Source of the DNA: Escherichia phage ekra
Sequence record: MN850644.1
Direction: 5' to 3' (one strand)
DNA length: 64,000 nt
Shown here: piece after piece, positions 1-47,279 of the stretch
Layout: every line of letters begins with the position of its first letter
Position numbering within the stretch: position 1 is the stretch's first letter
Notes under the pieces: generated by a model
What the model was told of the DNA's origin: nothing
Seen by the model: the letters and a program-made list of their open reading frames with translations, nothing else
Databases searched by the model: none
Translations under genes and position numbers: made by a program

Positions 1-1465
1 CTTCTAACAAGCCTTCTAAACACTCTTCTAACAAGCCTTCTTAATAACCTATACAATCACCTTAACCATCCCTCTACACCCTCTTAGAAGCTCCTATACA
101 CCTCTTAATCTCTAGGTTAGCTATGTGACTCTCTATAGGTGTTCACTAGATATTACTAAGCCTCTATATAGACTGTTTTAACAAACTTAACAGGAATATC
201 TTTACAGACCTTATCTCACAAGGTCTAACACGGCACTAACAAGGTATCTTATAAGCCTGTTTCTACCTGTATTTTAGAAAGACTGTATAGGTAATTATTC
301 AGAATCTTAAAATTTTTATAAAATAGGACTATCAAGTCATTTTTTAGGGTCTTTGAAGGAACTGAAAAATATCTGTAGAAGATGTATATCTGCTTGGTAG
401 CCCTTAACAACTCCCTTACAAGTACTTTGCAAAATTTTAAAATATCCTTAACAATCTCTTAACAGTTCTCACATCTTCTTAACATCTCTTCAAAGGTCTT
501 AACAGATTCTTAACAGAACTAACAAGGGTGTAACAAATCTCTAACAAGTGCTACATAGACTTTACAGAATCTTAACAGATTGCTAACAAGAGCTAACAAG
601 TTAATTTTAAAGGATTATTTTGTAGGGATTGGTAACAATACCAATTAAGATAATTAACAAGTCTCTAACAAGTGTTTAATCTTTTTAACAAGCTGTTAAC
701 ATGGTCACTACTCTTTTCTTATCGTTCCCTTTCCTTTCTTAGTGATTCCTTAAACATACCTCTTAAAAGCTCTCTATAGCTCTTTATAAGCTCTTTTAAG
801 TCTCTTCCTAGTAGTTACACCCCAACTGTACAGATACCTCTTTATAGGGCTTTACAGGAGCTTTTAAGGCTATGTCAAAGACTCTTACAAGGCTTTTACG
901 TGGTCTTAACAAAGATTTAACAAGGGGCTAACAAGTTGCTAACAAGTGCCTTAAAAGCATAACTATGTAGGGATTGTTAAGAAATTGTTAAGAAAATGTT
1001 AAGGGGGCTAGCATTTACGTAACTTTTAAGCTACTTCAAAGTAACTTTAAAGCCCCTATAACATACTTTTCAGTTACTATCAAGGGGGTTGTTTAGTAGT
1101 TCACAAGATAGCTAACGAGATAATAAAGCTTACACCCTTATAAGATTCTTTTAAGGCTCTGTGAAGCTTTATAAAGGGCTTTTAAGGGTGAGGTAATGCA
1201 ATCCCTTAAGTTAGGTTAAAAAGGCCGTTATAGGGCTTTATATGGCGTTTAAATGGGTTGCCCCCTTTCTGGGGTTATTGGCTTATGTTTAAGGGCTTAT
1301 TAATAAGGCCAATTAATTGACTTAGTAAAAGGCTGTAAAGTTATTGCTTTTAAGGTCTGATAAGATTCTAGAAAGGAAAGGGAAAGGGATTGTATAAGGA
1401 TTCGATAGGATGCAAAAAGCCCCATTTAAGGGGCTGTATAAAGGTATCTGGGCTATTTAGCCCCG
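1..1465. repeat. Non-coding field of about 30 dispersed short repeats, consensus (C/T)TAACA(A/G), in both orientations, plus degenerate copies of the CTTTATAAG/AAGCTCTTTATA motif
   Basis: Read directly: cttctaacaagcc twice in first 40 nt, runs such as cttaacagattcttaacagaactaacaagg (about 497-530), ttaacaaggggctaacaagttgctaacaagtg (about 915-950), inverted copies tgttaag x3 near 975-1005; no ORF of 60 aa or more. Confidence 0.7.
1417..1437 (-). terminator. Hairpin (agcccc / aggggct) followed by T-run on minus strand, downstream of early gene cluster
   Basis: Inverted repeat aagccccatttaaggggct; minus-strand reading gives stem-loop then tttttgc. Confidence 0.45.
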
Positions 1466-41888: not shown

Positions 41889-42095
41889 ATGGAAGTCCTA
41901 GTAAACTATATCTATTGTTATGATGTTGTTCACTCTACTACAACGGTAGCTCAACGTAACCCAATCGTCCCACGAGAAGGTGAGTTGGTTCGCATTGATG
42001 GTTGGACTTACACTGTGGAAAGCATCATTCATAAGTTTGATGTTGCTGGTGATGTTCAAGTTATTGACGTAGAAATTGGTGGCAAGAGGAAATGA
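41889..42095 (+). CDS. hypothetical protein (about 69 aa)
   Basis: ORF starting MEVLVNYIY. Confidence 0.35.
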   Translation: MEVLVNYIYCYDVVHSTTTVAQRNPIVPREGELVRIDGWTYTVESIIHKFDVAGDVQVIDVEIGGKRK

Positions 42096-42283
42096 ACAAA
42101 GAAGATAAGCATAAAAATGCTGTACGGACTCCTGATGGAAAGATTCAGTCCTTCGTCCTGACAGTTGGTGGAAAGCCATTTCGTTGCCACTGCGGAGCAA
42201 ACTGTTTTCATAAACCAGATAAAAATGACTTAGAGCTTTACGCATGTAATGCTTGCAATACTTGGTATCACTCAGAGGAATAA
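42092..42283 (+). CDS. Small zinc-ribbon protein
   Basis: CHCGANC ... CNACN cysteine pairs. Confidence 0.4.
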   Translation: MNKEDKHKNAVRTPDGKIQSFVLTVGGKPFRCHCGANCFHKPDKNDLELYACNACNTWYHSEE

Positions 42284-42285
42284 AA

Positions 42286-43389
42286 ATGACAATCCTATAC
42301 AAACAAAATAAAGATGGCTCTTTCAACGTCTGGTCATGCGTTGCTGTAGGTGACAAAGTTATTACAACCTATGGTAAAGAAAATGGCAAGATGATGTTTG
42401 AAGAGTACACAGCAGAACCGAAAAACATCGGTAAAAAGAATGAGCGTAACGCTGAACAGCAAGCTCTCTTTGAAGTTGCTGCTAAGTATAAAAAGCAAGT
42501 TGACCGTAAAGGCTACGCTTACACAAAAGAGTCTGCAAAGAATACTGAGAAAGTAGGTGTACAACTTGCTCATGATGCTGCAAAGGTTAGTCATGCAAAG
42601 TATCTGAAGTTCCCTGCTGATGCTCAACCAAAACTTGATGGTGTACGTTGTAGAATTTCAAGACACTTAAGTATTGGCAGTGTATTTACAGCATATTCTC
42701 GTGAGAATACTGTTTACAAAATCCCTACTGAACTAATACCTGACATTATGGCAATGTTAAGGCTCCACAAAGATGTTGATGAATTTGATGGAGAGATTTA
42801 TGCTCATGGGTGGGACTTAGAAGATATTGTCTCCATGATTAAAAATGAAGACAATCCTGACAGACACTTACTTAAGTTCTACTGGTATGATATCTGTGAC
42901 AGTACTAAAACGTGGCCTGAGCGTAGAGATATTATTGAGACTTCACCATTGAATGACTTTAGAGACGGCTGTAAAGTTGTCCCTGTTAAATCTCGTCGTG
43001 TAAATTCTTGGGAAGAGTTTGATGAAGCTCATGATAAGTGGGTTGAAGCTAAGTTTGAAGGTGCAATGTACCGTTCAATCTCTGAAGAATCTTTCTACGA
43101 GTGTTGTCACCGTTCATACTTCTTGATTAAGCACAAGAAGATGCACACTGAAGAGTTTAAAGTGACTGGTGTAAAGACCGATAAACGTGGTCATGGTAAG
43201 TTCGTTGTAGAGACTCTTCCTAACGTCTTTGTAGATGTTTCATGGAAGACTACTCACGAGAAGAAACAGTATCTTGCTGAACACCCTGAAGAGTTTATCG
43301 GGAAACCTTTAACGGTTCAGTTCCAGAAGATGACTCGTAAGGGGTCTTTACAGTTCCCTGTAGGGCTAGTTATTAGGGATTATGAATAA
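42286..43389 (+). CDS. ATP-dependent DNA ligase
   Basis: Adenylation motif I KLDGVRC; size about 367 aa as in T7-type ligases. Confidence 0.7.
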   Translation: MTILYKQNKDGSFNVWSCVAVGDKVITTYGKENGKMMFEEYTAEPKNIGKKNERNAEQQALFEVAAKYKKQVDRKGYAYTKESAKNTEKVGVQLAHDAAKVSHAKYLKFPADAQPKLDGVRCRISRHLSIGSVFTAYSRENTVYKIPTELIPDIMAMLRLHKDVDEFDGEIYAHGWDLEDIVSMIKNEDNPDRHLLKFYWYDICDSTKTWPERRDIIETSPLNDFRDGCKVVPVKSRRVNSWEEFDEAHDKWVEAKFEGAMYRSISEESFYECCHRSYFLIKHKKMHTEEFKVTGVKTDKRGHGKFVVETLPNVFVDVSWKTTHEKKQYLAEHPEEFIGKPLTVQFQKMTRKGSLQFPVGLVIRDYE

Positions 43390-43642
43390 ACTATGTTCAG
43401 TACAGTCATTCTGTTTATACTGGTTGTCTTTGTATTGTCATACGTTGCAAGTAAGCTTTTGGACACATCTTTTGCAATGGGTGTCTTGTTTACAATCTTT
43501 TGTTTCGTGACACATATAGCTATCAGAACTTTTTTATAAAAAGTTGTTGACATAGAAAATTTGGTGAGTATACTGAGCAGCATAAACCAACGGGTACTCA
43601 CCAACATCACTTAAGAGTCTTTGAAAAGGGTTTTTTAAGTGA

Positions 43643-43704
43643 TGTGGGGCGAGGCTCGGTGAGGTGGGGTAAGGCATAGTGCGGTGCTGTTTGGTATGGG
43701 TAGT
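43643..43704 (+). repeat. Tandem GGTNN pentamer array A1 (about 12 units) ending in GGTATGGGTAG
   Basis: 5-bp periodicity of GG read directly. Confidence 0.7.
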
Positions 43705-43773
43705 TAGTCTCAGCTACATTAAAATGAGACTTACCTTTTTAAAAGGTCTTTAAACAGGGTCTTTTAATAAGGT

Positions 43774-43866
43774 TGTGTGATGTGATGTATGGTGCTGTGG
43801 AGTTTGGTTAGGTCCGGTCAGGTATGGTATGGTGATGTGAGGTATGGGTGGATGGTAGTAGCCACG
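43774..43866 (+). repeat. Tandem GGTNN-type pentamer array A2
   Basis: 5-bp periodicity read directly. Confidence 0.6.
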
Positions 43867-43937
43867 TTAAAAATCTACCAAGTTTCTAAAGAGTCTTCTG
43901 TTGAGGGTTCTTTACAAACAACTTAACAATCAACTAA

Positions 43938-44543
<606 letters not shown>

Positions 44544-44545
44544 TT

Positions 44546-44986
44546 ATGAATACGAAAGCATTAGCAGCAAAGTTTAGTTACGGTGACACTGTATCACATT
44601 CTGAGATGGACACCTTCTTAGGTATTGTGAAGCCAACTTATCAAGGTGACATTGTTAAGTACGAAGATGAAATGAAGGCTTATGCGCTTACACGTCTAAA
44701 CCGACTTGAGAAGTTTATTGAGAAGCTTCTTAAAGAAGAGAAGATTTATCTGGTTGCTTCAATGGGTGTTGGTTATCGTGTGGTTGAACCTAAGCATCAA
44801 GCAACTATTGCAAAACGAAAAATGTCTGGTAAAATTGGTCGTGCTTTAAAGCAAGCCACTCAAGCGATTGAGAATGTGAACACTATGGCACTTAGCCATC
44901 AAGAACGCTCACGACTAATTGAACAGCAAAACCATTTAGCTGCTATGAAAGCTAACATTAACAAGCAACGTAGAAAACCTTTCTAA
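44546..44986 (+). CDS. hypothetical protein (146 aa), second gene of the repeat-flanked cassette
   Basis: ORF followed by terminator. Confidence 0.55.
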   Translation: MNTKALAAKFSYGDTVSHSEMDTFLGIVKPTYQGDIVKYEDEMKAYALTRLNRLEKFIEKLLKEEKIYLVASMGVGYRVVEPKHQATIAKRKMSGKIGRALKQATQAIENVNTMALSHQERSRLIEQQNHLAAMKANINKQRRKPF

Positions 44987-44996
44987 GTTAACTAGG

Positions 44997-45020
44997 TAGC
45001 CTCTTCGGAGGCTCCTTTTT
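44997..45020 (+). terminator. Intrinsic terminator (gcctc ttcg gaggc + TCCTTTTT)
   Basis: Read directly after the stop of 44546-44986. Confidence 0.6.
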
Positions 45021-45049
45021 AAAAGGTCTTTAAGAGGGTCTTTTAACAA

Positions 45050-45120
45050 GGTGCTGCGAGGTGGGGTCGGGTCAGGTACGGTCTTGTAAGGTCAGGTTAG
45101 GTAAAGTGAGGTATGGGTAG
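45050..45120 (+). repeat. Tandem GGTNN pentamer array B1
   Basis: ggtcg ggtca ggtac ggtct ... ggtat gggtag. Confidence 0.65.
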
Positions 45121-45186
45121 TTAATCGGAGCTACATAAAAATTCGATTACATCACTTAAGAGTCTTTTAAAAGGGTTTTTAAGTGA

Positions 45187-45251
45187 AGTATGGTATGGCA
45201 TGGCGCGGTGAGGTCGGGTGCGGTCAGGTCAGGTGAGGTTCGGTATGGGTA
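45187..45251 (+). repeat. Tandem GGTNN pentamer array B2 (12 near-perfect units)
   Basis: ggtat ggtat ggcat ggcgc ggtga ggtcg ggtgc ggtca ggtca ggtga ggttc ggtat gggtag. Confidence 0.75.
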
Positions 45252-45319
45252 GTTAGTCTCAGCTACATTAAAATGAGACTTACCTTTTTAAAAGGTCTTT
45301 AAGAGGGTCTTTTAATAAG

Positions 45320-45390
45320 GTATTGTATGGTGTAGTTTGGTTAGGTATGGTTGGGTGTGGTAAGGTAGGGTATGGAAGGATGGCAGTAGC
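45320..45390 (+). repeat. Tandem GGTNN-type pentamer array B3
   Basis: 5-bp periodicity read directly. Confidence 0.6.
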
Positions 45391-45499
45391 CTTATAAAAA
45401 ATCTGCCAAATAAGCTATAAAATCTGTTGACAAGTCAGGTGTTATAGCTTATTTTTATACTCAATGTAATACAAAATTTAATATAACTTTGAGGTCATT

Positions 45500-45883
45500 A
45501 TGAAAAAGGTTTTATTAGCTGCTGCAATGGTTATGGCAATGAATTTACCAGTTAATGCAACAGAACTTCCAAATGTGGACTTATCAGGTGTTCCAGAAGA
45601 CACTTGCCAGATTGTTAAAGGTGTTGCTCTAGCTAATGGTGAGCTACTTAAACCAATCTCTGAAGAGTCTTTGACAGAGATGACTGATAAAGTAACTGAC
45701 TATCAGTATCGTGTTCTTGCAGAGTATTTCCTGCAATCTGCAAACATTAAAGAGAAGCACCATGAAGATATTGATGTACAGGCTATGCTAAATCATCGTA
45801 TCCAGTTTAAAGAAGATTTGATGCAAAAAGCTATGTATGGTGTTGAATATTTCTTAGAAAACAGAAGCTGCACAGGTATTTGA
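45500..45883 (+). CDS. Secreted/periplasmic protein with signal peptide (127 aa)
   Basis: MKKVLLAAAMVMAMNLPVNATE; TTGACA-containing promoter-like sequence about 60 nt upstream. Confidence 0.5.
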   Translation: MKKVLLAAAMVMAMNLPVNATELPNVDLSGVPEDTCQIVKGVALANGELLKPISEESLTEMTDKVTDYQYRVLAEYFLQSANIKEKHHEDIDVQAMLNHRIQFKEDLMQKAMYGVEYFLENRSCTGI

Positions 45884-45884
45884 T

Positions 45885-46097
45885 ATGGCTCTTAAAAAGT
45901 TACATCCCAGAAGCGGTTATGGTAAGATAATTGACGATACAGACGGCTTTACAGTCTTTACAGTCATCTGTCAAGATGATTCACAGATTGAAAAGGCTCT
46001 TGACGATTATCTTAATGATGAACGTGAAAAGGTTAGGGCTACAAACATAGATTCATTAATTGACACTTCACGTAAACGGAAGAAGAAAGATGAATGA
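45885..46097 (+). CDS. hypothetical protein (70 aa)
   Basis: ORF. Confidence 0.4.
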   Translation: MALKKLHPRSGYGKIIDDTDGFTVFTVICQDDSQIEKALDDYLNDEREKVRATNIDSLIDTSRKRKKKDE

Positions 46098-46389
46098 AGT
46101 TTTTGACCCTTATGCTCCACAAGATGATTGGGAGGCTGACAGAGAGGCTGAAATGGAGAGTTATGTTTGTCCAATGGATGTAGACGAAATGAGAGACTTC
46201 GTTGCACATCGTTTTAAGAGAGAGATTAAATCCAGAGGTCTTTCTCAAGAGCAAGTTGCTAAAATTTGTGGTATCTCTCAGGCTCGTGTATCCAACATAA
46301 TCCACCTCACTGGGAATGTTTCCCTTGAGTATATGTTGGAAGTATGTGAAAAATTTGGTGTTAATTTTAATTTAAGGTTGGCAGATTAA
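46090..46389 (+). CDS. Helix-turn-helix (XRE/Cro-like) DNA-binding protein
   Basis: LSQEQVAKICGISQARVSNI; ATGAATGA start/stop overlap with upstream gene. Confidence 0.5.
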   Translation: MNEVFDPYAPQDDWEADREAEMESYVCPMDVDEMRDFVAHRFKREIKSRGLSQEQVAKICGISQARVSNIIHLTGNVSLEYMLEVCEKFGVNFNLRLAD

Positions 46390-46390
46390 T

Positions 46391-46750
46391 ATGAAACGTG
46401 AAAACATTATCCACTCTGAAAACTTCGCATTAGGCTTTTATGGCGTACCCACTCACCTTGAAAAGTATTATGGTGTGAAGATTCTCTCCAATCTCATTAT
46501 GGCTTACAAAGATGGTAAGATTAAGCATACTGAGAAGAAACGTGTCATGGGCTATATGGCTGTAGGCTCAGCAATCTCGAACATTAAGCTGGAGACAACT
46601 AGCAGTCAGATTGTGAAAGACCACTTCATCAAAGAGCTTTACCAGAATCTTGATGGTGTGGATGTTCAGGCTGTTTGGCTGGATGTTGATGGTCATAACT
46701 ACACGAGTTTTGTTTTCAAAAACGATGACATTAAGTGTCTGTTCCCATAA
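46391..46750 (+). CDS. hypothetical protein (119 aa)
   Basis: ORF. Confidence 0.45.
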   Translation: MKRENIIHSENFALGFYGVPTHLEKYYGVKILSNLIMAYKDGKIKHTEKKRVMGYMAVGSAISNIKLETTSSQIVKDHFIKELYQNLDGVDVQAVWLDVDGHNYTSFVFKNDDIKCLFP

Positions 46751-46763
46751 TAGGTGATTAACT

Positions 46764-47279
46764 ATGATTGATGTCTACTTACAAGATGCTCATGCAGATT
46801 TCCTTAAAGAGATGCTTAAAAAGTTTATGGCTTCACAGTATGAGAATGAAGCATCTTTTAAAATAGTTACATGTGGCGACGAAGCTGGTTTTGTTGAGAT
46901 TGAACATGAAGGTACTGGAAAGATTGTTTGTAAGCTACCTGATAGTATGTTCTCTAAAACGTTCTTAACAAAGACTAGTATAAATGTTAAACTTGTACCA
47001 CAGATTGAAACATACTCTGGTACAGATTACCCTAAAGGTTTCAAGTCACTGATGAAACACTTCTTAGATGACTTTGTGAGTAATCTTCTAAGTGAGGTAA
47101 CAGAAAGCCGTACAATATTAACTGTAGAGAATCTAGGGAACACTATCAGGGTTACTTCTGACCGATATTCTATGAGTCTCTTCGACTTTGTACCTAAGAA
47201 CTTTGATGGTATTCTGGATGAAGAAGATGACTGTGTAGACTTTATATTGGTTCTTGAACCAGTTTTTGAGGTTAAATAG
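46764..47279 (+). CDS. hypothetical protein (171 aa)
   Basis: ORF. Confidence 0.45.
   Translation: MIDVYLQDAHADFLKEMLKKFMASQYENEASFKIVTCGDEAGFVEIEHEGTGKIVCKLPDSMFSKTFLTKTSINVKLVPQIETYSGTDYPKGFKSLMKHFLDDFVSNLLSEVTESRTILTVENLGNTIRVTSDRYSMSLFDFVPKNFDGILDEEDDCVDFILVLEPVFEVK

What the first reader, a model, noticed from the sequence alone, without database searches (positions are those of the whole stretch)
44990..45490. Repeat cluster B: three more GGTNN arrays with covariant hairpins and a promoter-like sequence
After the terminator at 44997-45020 the same module types recur: array B1 (about 45050-45120), hairpin taatcg gagctacataaaaatt cgatta, the cacttaagagtctt...aagtga inverted repeat, array B2 (12 near-perfect units, 45187-45251), hairpin agtctca...tgagact, the ggtctttaa/gggtcttttaa box, array B3, hairpin ggcag tagccttataaaaaat ctgcc, then a TTGACA-containing promoter-like sequence upstream of the secreted-protein gene at 45500. 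Across clusters A and B the hairpin stems differ in sequence (agtctca/tgagact, taatcg/cgatta, gtag/ctac, ggcag/ctgcc) while pairing and the A-rich loop are kept, the classic signature of selection on structure.
Basis: seen in the sequence. Interest (0 to 1): 0.8.

Follow-up and report, generated by a model that had tools for sequence, protein, structure and literature searches.

The report
Phage VIPR guide-RNA array (known)

Summary
Window 45050-45407 holds three modules (B1-B3). Each is a leader hairpin, then 11-13 GGY/NN pentamers, then a covarying 3' pseudoknot. Two more modules (A1, A2) lie at 43606-43879. Such arrays occur nowhere else in the 64 kb.

The window is a Felix-O1-like phage. 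The two genes between the clusters encode proteins 98% and 99% identical to Vipr and Vap1 of phage SUSP1 (PDB 36pp). That system was characterised in bioRxiv 10.64898/2026.04.26.720920 and .720927.

According to those papers, Vipr, a Cas7-like RAMP protein, polymerises one protomer per pentamer. It buries GGY and presents the NN pairs, which read double-stranded DNA with one skipped base per unit and repress transcription.

I decoded all five arrays. Only the 1-nt-skip rule finds targets, at 86-100% NN match and above every shuffled control. The targets lie in a satellite element of E. coli chromosomes. Four guides hit three alleles of its large serine recombinase gene, and one hits an HTH gene.

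The verdict is already known. The preprint main text I searched does not mention three things I saw: a covarying leader hairpin before each array, a terminator-like hairpin that encloses the "promoter", and tRNA-like minihelix tails in other VIPR lineages.

The parts
43547..43574 (+). Sigma-70-type promoter TTGACA-16-TATACT upstream of cluster A, vipr and vap1
   Evidence: 11 of 12 consensus matches. The sequence is identical in SUSP1.
43606..43644 (+). Leader hairpin, type i, before array A1
   Evidence: Covarying 13-pair hairpin.
43643..43697 (+). vrRNA A1 guide array, 11 GGY/NN units
   Evidence: Register. Target match is 19/20 NN under the 1-nt-skip rule, in the satellite recombinase gene.
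43698..43731 (+). A1 3' tail pseudoknot (S1 GTAG/CTAC, S2 AGTCTCA/TGAGACT)
43734..43772 (+). Leader hairpin, type ii, before array A2
43771..43845 (+). vrRNA A2 guide array, 15 units
   Evidence: Target match is 24/28 NN in the satellite recombinase gene.
43846..43879 (+). A2 3' tail pseudoknot (S1 GTGG/CCAC, S2 GGTAG/CTACC)
43880..43921 (+). Leader-type hairpin, type iii, preceding the vipr ribosome-binding site
   Evidence: It occupies the same alignment columns and pairs as types i and ii.
43956..44543 (+). vipr: RAMP (Cas7-like) protein, 195 aa
   Evidence: 98% identical to SUSP1 Vipr. phmmer E = 2.2e-128 to PDB 36pp_D. The AF2 model has pLDDT 94.7, and its best PDB fold matches are Csm3/Cas7.
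44546..44986 (+). vap1: VIPR accessory protein, 146 aa
   Evidence: 99% identical to the SUSP1 gene in the vap1 position, with the same synteny.
44998..45022 (+). Intrinsic terminator-like hairpin and T-run after vap1. The T-run is shared with the next leader hairpin.
45014..45051 (+). Leader hairpin, type ii, before array B1 (contains the GGTCTTTAA/GGGTCTTTTAA box)
45050..45114 (+). vrRNA B1 guide array, 13 units
   Evidence: Target match is 22/24 NN in the satellite recombinase gene.
45115..45149 (+). B1 3' tail pseudoknot (S1 GTAG/CTAC, S2 AATCGG/TCGATT)
45150..45188 (+). Leader hairpin, type i, before array B2 (the CACTTAAG...TTAAGTG inverted repeat)
45187..45246 (+). vrRNA B2 guide array, 12 units
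   Evidence: Target match is 22/22 NN in the recombinase of the wrbA-site satellite variant.
45247..45280 (+). B2 3' tail pseudoknot (same type as A1)
45283..45320 (+). Leader hairpin, type ii, before array B3
45319..45373 (+). vrRNA B3 guide array, 11 units
   Evidence: Target match is 18/20 NN in the satellite HTH-domain gene.
45374..45407 (+). B3 3' tail pseudoknot (S1 AAGG/CCTT, S2 GGCAG/CTGCC)
45408..45460 (+). AU-rich 19-nt-arm hairpin followed by a U-tract. It encloses TTGACA (45427-45432). It is the probable terminator of the array and possibly also the promoter of the next gene.
   Evidence: repeat I1; free energy -18 kcal/mol, z = -4.4; promoter-like, 10 of 12.

Best explanation
Cluster B (with cluster A) is the guide-RNA array of a type II VIPR (Viral Interference Programmable Repeat) system in a Felix-O1-like myovirus. 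It is orthologous to the experimentally characterised locus of phage SUSP1.

Shown here by sequence:
- Each module encodes a vrRNA of about 100 nt: 11-15 pentamers of conserved GGY plus hypervariable NN, capped by a covarying 3' H-type pseudoknot.
- The genes between the clusters are vipr (a minimal Cas7-like RAMP protein) and vap1.
- Read with one skipped base per unit (target xNNxNN...), all five guides of this phage match a satellite element integrated in E. coli chromosomes. Four match its large serine recombinase gene, spread over three integration-site alleles. One matches an HTH-domain gene.
- None of the guides matches the 64-kb window sequence itself.

Taken from the SUSP1 papers and inferred for this phage from 98% protein identity:
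- Vipr binds one protomer per pentamer as a helical filament. It flips out and buries GGY and presents the NN pairs.
- The filament invades double-stranded DNA and forms a gapped R-loop/triplex.
- Binding represses transcription.

Inference: this phage uses the array to silence a satellite that parasitises it, mainly by shutting down the satellite's recombinase.
For: - Vipr is 191/195 identical to SUSP1 Vipr and Vap1 is 145/146 identical. The PDB chain 36pp_D, 'SUSP1 Vipr protein', matches at E = 2.2e-128.
- The residues the structure paper names as RNA contacts (H17, E71, M72, R138, C173, D177, W178, R179) are all present.
- The AF2 model (pLDDT 94.7) finds Csm3/Cas7 RAMPs as its best PDB folds.
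- Synteny matches SUSP1: ligase, vrRNA, vipr, vap1, vrRNAs.
- Over 35 unique arrays from relatives, the pentamer positions are G 0.82, G 0.97, Y 1.00, then 1.95 and 1.92 bits of entropy.
- Pseudoknot covariation: 97% of cells paired, 8 of 9 pairs compensatory, 0 of 500 shuffles.
- Target matches under skip 1: A1 19/20, A2 24/28, B1 22/24, B2 22/22, B3 18/20. The maxima of 200 shuffled-unit controls were 17, 22, 20, 18 and 17.
- Skips 0, 2 and 3 never beat their controls, and the best self-match in the window was 60-75%.
- The skipped base falls on codon position 3 in four of the five targets (coordinates).
- Independently, a blind GGTNN x6 scan of IMG/VR retrieved dozens of unrelated viral contigs. 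Their degenerate arrays sit next to homologues of this protein.
- Mechanism and biology come from bioRxiv 10.64898/2026.04.26.720920 and 10.64898/2026.04.26.720927.
Against: - Nothing here measures RNA or activity in this phage. Expression, RNP formation and silencing are inferred from SUSP1.
- My target sample is only about 10 satellite loci, so better or additional targets may exist.
- The B2 target was found by an exact-pattern search, so its score within that sample is not an independent test. Its location in the same gene family as the other targets is independent.
- The B3 match has its skipped base at codon position 1, and its margin over controls is the smallest (18 against a maximum of 17).
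- How cluster B is transcribed past the vap1 terminator, and how individual vrRNAs are cut out, is not established.
Confidence: 0.95

Rival explanations
1. The arrays are protein-sponge or attenuator RNAs of the TRAP type. A ring or filament protein binds a triplet every 5 nt, and the RNA only titrates or regulates that protein. There is no guide function.
For: The 5-nt period, the conserved triplet and the 11-15 units resemble TRAP sites. This was my first idea before any search. A protein does bind one protomer per unit.
Against: The NN positions are near maximal entropy between relatives, yet they match satellite genes at 86-100% only under the 1-nt-skip register. A pure sponge would not carry such information. 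No TRAP domain was found. The triplet is GGY, not GAG/UAG.
Confidence: 0.02
2. This is a DNA-level element. A G-rich non-template strand downstream of a strong promoter forms R-loops or G-quadruplexes and serves as a replication origin or recombination hotspot.
For: The arrays are strand-specific and G-rich. They lie downstream of an 11/12 promoter inside the replication-gene module. GG every 5 nt could form two-tetrad quadruplexes.
Against: A strict pyrimidine at position 3 and G.U-dependent leader hairpins point to RNA and protein recognition. The pseudoknot covaries. The arrays co-occur with Vipr homologues in unrelated viruses. The orthologous RNAs are seen as ~100-nt transcripts bound to Vipr.
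Confidence: 0.01
3. The hairpins are primarily transcription signals (terminators, processing sites or hairpin promoters), and the arrays are spacers between them.
For: Tails of the A1/B2 type are followed by CCTTTTT, the same T-run that follows the vap1 terminator. The leader hairpins sit exactly between vrRNAs. The element after B3 looks like a terminator.
Against: Stem 1 pairs with the loop of stem 2, which makes a pseudoknot and not a simple terminator hairpin. Tails of the A2 and B3 types have no T-run. The pseudoknot is retained in the mature RNP, where it caps the filament. This reading may still be partly true for the leader hairpins.
Confidence: 0.02

Closest known systems
SUSP1 type II VIPR system (bioRxiv 10.64898/2026.04.26.720920 and 10.64898/2026.04.26.720927; PDB 36pp)
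   Same: - Orthologous locus with the same synteny.
- Vipr is 98% identical and Vap1 99% identical.
- The same promoter, GGY/NN arrays and tail pseudoknot types are present.
- The same target, the E. coli satellite carrying tape-measure and baseplate genes.
   Different: - This phage has two upstream vrRNAs (A1, A2) where SUSP1 has one, and the NN content of its guides differs.
- SUSP1 is classified in Suspvirus. This window's nearest relatives are Felixounavirus.
Class 1 CRISPR-Cas backbone (Cas7/Csm3 filament on crRNA)
   Same: - The RAMP/RRM fold with a glycine-rich loop and thumb; Csm3 is the best PDB fold match.
- One protomer per fixed number of guide nucleotides.
- A guide capped by a constant structured handle.
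   Different: - A 5-nt rather than 6-nt period.
- Three of every five bases are sequence-specific protein contacts, and only two pair with the target.
- The target is read with one skipped base.
- There are no repeat-spacer array, no adaptation genes and no nuclease.
- The system is encoded by a phage.
TRAP-trp leader RNA (11 G/UAG triplets with 2-3 nt spacers)
   Same: An oligomeric protein reads a conserved triplet at about 5-nt spacing along single-stranded RNA, over 11-13 units.
   Different: - A different fold and a different triplet.
- TRAP spacers carry no information, whereas here the spacers are the guide.
- No TRAP domain is present.

Membership tests
VIPR system, type II (SUSP1 clade) | A Vipr protein (minimal RAMP: RRM core, G-loop, thumb) is encoded next to the arrays. 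| tested here: met
   The protein is 98% identical to SUSP1 Vipr and matches PDB 36pp_D at E = 2.2e-128. It carries the C-terminal G-loop [12 protein letters not shown]. Its best PDB folds are Csm3/Cas7.
VIPR system, type II (SUSP1 clade) | The residues that contact GGY (H17, E71, M72, R138, C173, D177, W178, R179) are conserved. | tested here: met
   All are present at the same positions.
VIPR system, type II (SUSP1 clade) | The vrRNA consists of 9-16 tandem pentamers, with GGY conserved and NN hypervariable. | tested here: met
   The five arrays have 11, 15, 13, 12 and 11 units. Over 35 unique arrays the positions are G 0.82, G 0.97, Y 1.00, and NN carries 1.95 and 1.92 bits. Whole guide cassettes differ between 97%-identical phages.
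VIPR system, type II (SUSP1 clade) | A constant 3' tail folds as a pseudoknot. | tested here: met
   For the 9 pairs in two helices, 97% of cells are paired, 8 pairs carry compensatory changes, 0 of 500 shuffles reach the observed value, and slid controls give 28-44%.
VIPR system, type II (SUSP1 clade) | A vap1 accessory gene lies directly downstream of vipr. | tested here: met
   The protein is 145/146 identical to the SUSP1 gene in that position. It has no Pfam or PDB relative.
VIPR system, type II (SUSP1 clade) | The guides match natural targets in competing mobile elements under the 1-nt-skip rule, with at least 80% NN match and no self-targeting. | tested here: met
   All five guides score 86-100% under skip 1 only, and all targets lie in the satellite element. 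The best window self-match is 60-75%.
VIPR system, type II (SUSP1 clade) | vrRNAs are expressed as ~100-nt RNAs, co-purify with Vipr, and repress transcription of targets. | not testable with these tools
   This was shown for SUSP1 by small-RNA sequencing, pull-down, GFP repression and plaque assays. It is inferred here from orthology.
CRISPR array | Identical direct repeats of 24-40 nt alternate with unique spacers, next to cas genes including an adaptation module. | tested here: not met
   The repeat unit is 5 nt with 2 variable bases. The constant parts (leader, tail) occur in several sequence types. The only neighbouring genes are vipr and vap1.
TRAP-binding RNA | GAG/UAG triplets are spaced by 2-3 nt, and a TRAP protein is encoded in the genome. 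| tested here: not met
   The triplet is GGY. No TRAP domain was found in the flanking proteins.
Any Rfam family | A covariance-model match. | tested here: not met
   No match at E <= 1 over window 42000-47000. No match at gathering score in 10 other VIPR loci.

The most novel reading that the evidence does not exclude
The leader hairpin precedes every array and also vipr. It has a 13-pair G.U-rich stem in three covarying sequence types and a conserved loop GUCUUU..AGGGU. It may be an undescribed functional RNA element of type II VIPR arrays. One possibility is that it sets the 5' boundary of Vipr filament growth from the pseudoknot. Another is that it directs the cleavage that separates neighbouring vrRNAs and the vipr mRNA. 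That would make it the counterpart of the hammerhead ribozymes, and of the tRNA-like minihelices I saw in L012 and L081, that punctuate arrays in other VIPR types.
Probability: 0.35. Interest if true: 0.4.

Novelty: already known. Interest (0 to 1): 0.3.

Why it matters
VIPR is an RNA-guided DNA-recognition system with a non-contiguous code, and it has been proposed as an ancestor of CRISPR RAMP effectors. Finding it from raw sequence alone shows that the first-stage scan can pick up real, high-value biology.

For this locus the kind of element, its mechanism and its target are already published for a 98%-identical orthologue. The added value is therefore confirmatory. It gives this phage's guide repertoire and shows that four guides cover three integrase alleles of the satellite. 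It also leaves a few loose ends about how vrRNAs are made.

Tried and rejected
- Rfam scan of the region at E <= 1 found nothing.
- A literature search on 'Felix O1 / non-coding RNA / repeat' found nothing useful.
- Pfam and PHROGs gave only families of unknown function for the flanking proteins.
- I considered TRAP-like binding, T4 gene-32-like autoregulation, R-loop origin, G-quadruplex, T7-type primase sites (GGTC) and Chi-like decoys. I dropped all of them once the Vipr identity and the 1-nt-skip targets were found.
- I tested the GGTCTTTAA/GGGTCTTTTAA box as a general phage promoter motif. Exact copies occur only in this locus. Loose matches elsewhere number 11, against about 6 expected, so this is not supported.
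- I tested the leader as a sigma-70 promoter by eye. The best fit is 8 of 12 and lacks A at position 2 of the -10 hexamer, so this is not supported.
- BLAST of the locus against E. coli genomes matched only the 77-nt vrRNA end carried by satellites. I located the satellite itself through the phage baseplate gene.
- ARAGORN and Rfam did not call the tRNA-like tails of other VIPR loci.

Full report
**What is in the sequence**

Reading 42600-46200 and scanning the whole window shows five modules. All are on the + strand and lie in two clusters that flank two small genes. The pattern GGTNNGGTNNGGTNNGGT with up to 1 mismatch occurs 30 times against 0.02 expected, and only at these places.

Anchoring on the constant sequence after each array puts the pentamers in register:
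- A1: 43643-43697, 11 units.
- A2: 43771-43845, 15 units.
- B1: 45050-45114, 13 units.
- B2: 45187-45246, 12 units.
- B3: 45319-45373, 11 units.

Position 1 is usually G but sometimes T or A. Position 2 is G. Position 3 is T or C. Positions 4-5 vary freely. The last unit is always GGTAT.

**The hairpins**

The 34-35 nt after each array is not a plain hairpin.

Across the window, relatives and a chromosomal copy:
- Stem 1 appears as GTAG/CTAC, GTGG/CCAC or AAGG/CCTT.
- Stem 2 appears as AGTCTCA/TGAGACT, AATCGG/YCGATT, GGTAG/CTACC, GGCAG/CTGCC or GTCG/CGAC.

On eight distinct tails, 97% of cells are paired and 8 of 9 pairs show changes on both sides. No shuffle out of 500 reaches the observed values, and sliding the partners drops pairing to 28-44%.

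**Where the window comes from, and the first clue**

The region is 90-97% identical to Felix-O1-like phages. Existing annotations show only 'repeat_region' and hypothetical proteins.

A scan of IMG/VR for six exact GGTNN units returned at least 120 loci. Beyond relatives and simple microsatellites, many unrelated viral contigs carried degenerate arrays of 10-44 units.

Searching the ORFs of those loci with the three proteins next to the window's arrays gave two results:
- The 195-aa protein (43956-44543) has homologues beside the arrays in more than 20 unrelated contigs, with E-values from 1e-38 to 1e-4.
- The 146-aa protein has homologues in six contigs, with E-values from 9e-8 to 1e-2.

This association was found blind to any annotation.

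**Identification**

- The 195-aa family is large and carries no Pfam domain and no informative name.
- Its alignment shows an invariant C-terminal G(L/V)[10 protein letters not shown], a RAMP-type glycine-rich loop.
- A profile search of PDB sequences hit one entry, 36pp, 'SUSP1 Vipr protein' (E = 2.8e-80; single sequence E = 2.2e-128).
- The AF2 model (pLDDT 94.7) finds Csm3/Cas7 subunits of type III and VII CRISPR complexes as its best solved folds.

Two 2026 preprints describe the system. According to them:
- VIPR consists of Vipr plus vrRNAs of 9-16 GGY/NN repeats with a 3' tail pseudoknot.
- Vipr forms a helical filament with one protomer per repeat. It buries GGY and presents NN.
- Targets in double-stranded DNA are read as xNNxNN, the '1-nt skip' rule.
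- Binding represses transcription.
- In the SUSP1 clade, 18 of 20 guides with identifiable targets hit a satellite phage in E. coli.

The SUSP1 locus has the same gene order. Its Vipr and Vap1 are 98% and 99% identical to the window's proteins. Its promoter, leaders and tails are nearly identical too.

**Testing the defining features here**

Composition. Over 35 unique arrays of this clade, the positions are G 0.82, G 0.97 and Y 1.00, followed by 1.95 and 1.92 bits of entropy. Between this window and phage Andreotti (97% identical overall), the A2 and B3 guides are identical. The B1 and B2 guides are entirely different.

Finding the satellite. I located it through the phage baseplate gene. 474 of 5426 E. 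coli genomes hold a homologous locus. I fetched nine examples.

Decoding the guides. I dropped the constant last unit and scored all four skip rules against about 252 kb of these loci on both strands. Only skip 1 exceeds the shuffled-unit controls:

| Guide | NN match (skip 1) | Max of 200 shuffles |
|---|---|---|
| A1 | 19/20 | 17 |
| A2 | 24/28 | 22 |
| B1 | 22/24 | 20 |
| B2 | 22/22 | 18 |
| B3 | 18/20 | 17 |

The B2 site came from an exact gapped-pattern scan of IMG/VR. That scan returned a single hit, inside a recombinase gene next to wrbA.

The window does not target itself; its best self-match is 60-75%.

Targets by guide:
- A1 matches the recombinase of satellites integrated between yciI and tonB.
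- A2 and B1 match the allele integrated in the DUF72 gene next to yecD.
- B2 matches the wrbA-site allele.
- B3 matches an HTH-domain gene.

In four of the five targets the skipped base is codon position 3, as the preprint reports for most targets.

The last unit's AT was mismatched at one or both bases in all five best hits. GGTAT therefore behaves as part of the constant tail.

**Mechanism for this locus**

Shown here are the parts list, the structural covariation, the orthology and the target code.

Inferred from SUSP1 are transcription from the promoter at 43547-43574 (11 of 12), filament assembly, gapped R-loop/triplex formation and repression.

My reading is that the phage carries a small repertoire aimed mostly at the satellite's large serine recombinase, covering three integration-site variants. 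The presumed effect is to block the satellite's excision or establishment during infection.

**What the preprints do not cover**

Their main text has no occurrence of leader, biogenesis, terminator, transcription start or tRNA. I did not read their figures or supplements.

*1. Leader hairpin.*
- Thirteen pairs occupy the same alignment columns in three types: CATCACTTAAGAG.., CCTTTTTAAAAGG.. and, before vipr, AGTTTCTAAAGAG...
- 93% of cells are paired, 7 pairs have double changes, and 0 of 500 shuffles reach the covariation score.
- Several pairs are G.U, which argues for RNA rather than DNA.
- The 3' arm of the hairpin overlaps the first degenerate units of the array.
- The evidence rests on few independent sequence types, so it is suggestive only.

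*2. Hairpin after B3.*
- After B3 there is a hairpin with 19-nt arms and a U-tract at 45408-45460 (free energy -18 kcal/mol, z = -4.4).
- It may terminate the array, act as the promoter of the next gene, or do both.

*3. tRNA-like tails elsewhere.*
- In other VIPR lineages the array is followed by a tRNA-like minihelix: a 7-bp acceptor stem stacked on a T-arm with a TTCGATT loop.
- This is seen in L012, L028, L045 and L072, and with different covarying sequence in L081.
- ARAGORN and Rfam do not call these elements.
- In L081 the minihelix separates two arrays, which suggests tRNA-style punctuation.

**Verdict**

The element is a VIPR guide array orthologous to a characterised system, so it is already known. 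Interest is modest and rests on the loose ends about vrRNA biogenesis.

Noticed in passing
window 43606-43644, 43734-43772, 43880-43921, 45014-45051, 45150-45188, 45283-45320: A leader hairpin precedes every vrRNA array and also vipr. It has 13 covarying pairs, many of them G.U, in three sequence types, with a conserved loop GUCUUU..AGGGU. It is not mentioned in the main text of the two VIPR preprints. It may set the 5' boundary of the filament or act as a processing signal.
   Followed up: partly
window 45408-45460: A strong AU-rich hairpin is followed by a U-tract (free energy -18 kcal/mol, z = -4.4), and its loop contains the TTGACA of the promoter-like site. It is probably the terminator of the B array and possibly a combined terminator and promoter. 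The sequence is identical in SUSP1.
   Followed up: partly
window 43693-43697, 43841-43845, 45110-45114, 45242-45246, 45369-45373: The last pentamer of every array is GGTAT (27 of 35 unique arrays in relatives). Its AT was mismatched at one or both bases in all five best target sites. It behaves as part of the constant tail and not as guide.
   Followed up: partly
L125 15777-17297, L128 12760-14283, L133 12776-14419, L126 5616-6536: The five guides split across satellite variants. A1 hits the recombinase allele at the yciI-tonB site. A2 and B1 hit the allele at the DUF72/yecD site. B2 hits the wrbA-site allele. B3 hits an HTH gene. The repertoire therefore covers allelic diversity of a single satellite gene.
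   Followed up: yes
L123 19985-20075 (E. coli O111 chromosome); also L131: Satellite elements carry their own vrRNA but no vipr gene in the stretches I read. That vrRNA has a sigma-70-like promoter (TTGATG-17-TATAAT) and a fifth tail variant (S2 GTCG/CGAC). 152 of 5426 E. coli genomes match this 77-nt vrRNA end. The preprint mentions satellite-borne vrRNAs.
   Followed up: partly
L012 819-880 (also L028, L045, L072); L081 6124-6165: In other VIPR lineages the array is followed by a tRNA-like minihelix: a 7-bp acceptor stem plus a T-arm with a TTCGATT loop, without D or anticodon arms. In L081 it lies between two arrays. This suggests RNase P/Z-type punctuation. The preprint main text does not describe it, and ARAGORN and Rfam do not call it.
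   Followed up: partly
window 45050-45246 versus L001 4553-4749: Phage Andreotti is 97% identical over the locus and shares the A2 and B3 guides. Its B1 and B2 guides are completely different. Guides are therefore exchanged as whole cassettes between constant leaders and tails.
   Followed up: partly
window 447-515, 756-806, 918-1003, 43910-43935; L123 18900-19980: Short TTAACA(A/G)-containing repeats recur in intergenic parts of the phage. Similar CTTAACAG / CTGTTAAG motifs are dense in the 1.5-kb non-coding region of the satellite upstream of its vrRNA. They may be shared regulatory sites.
   Followed up: no
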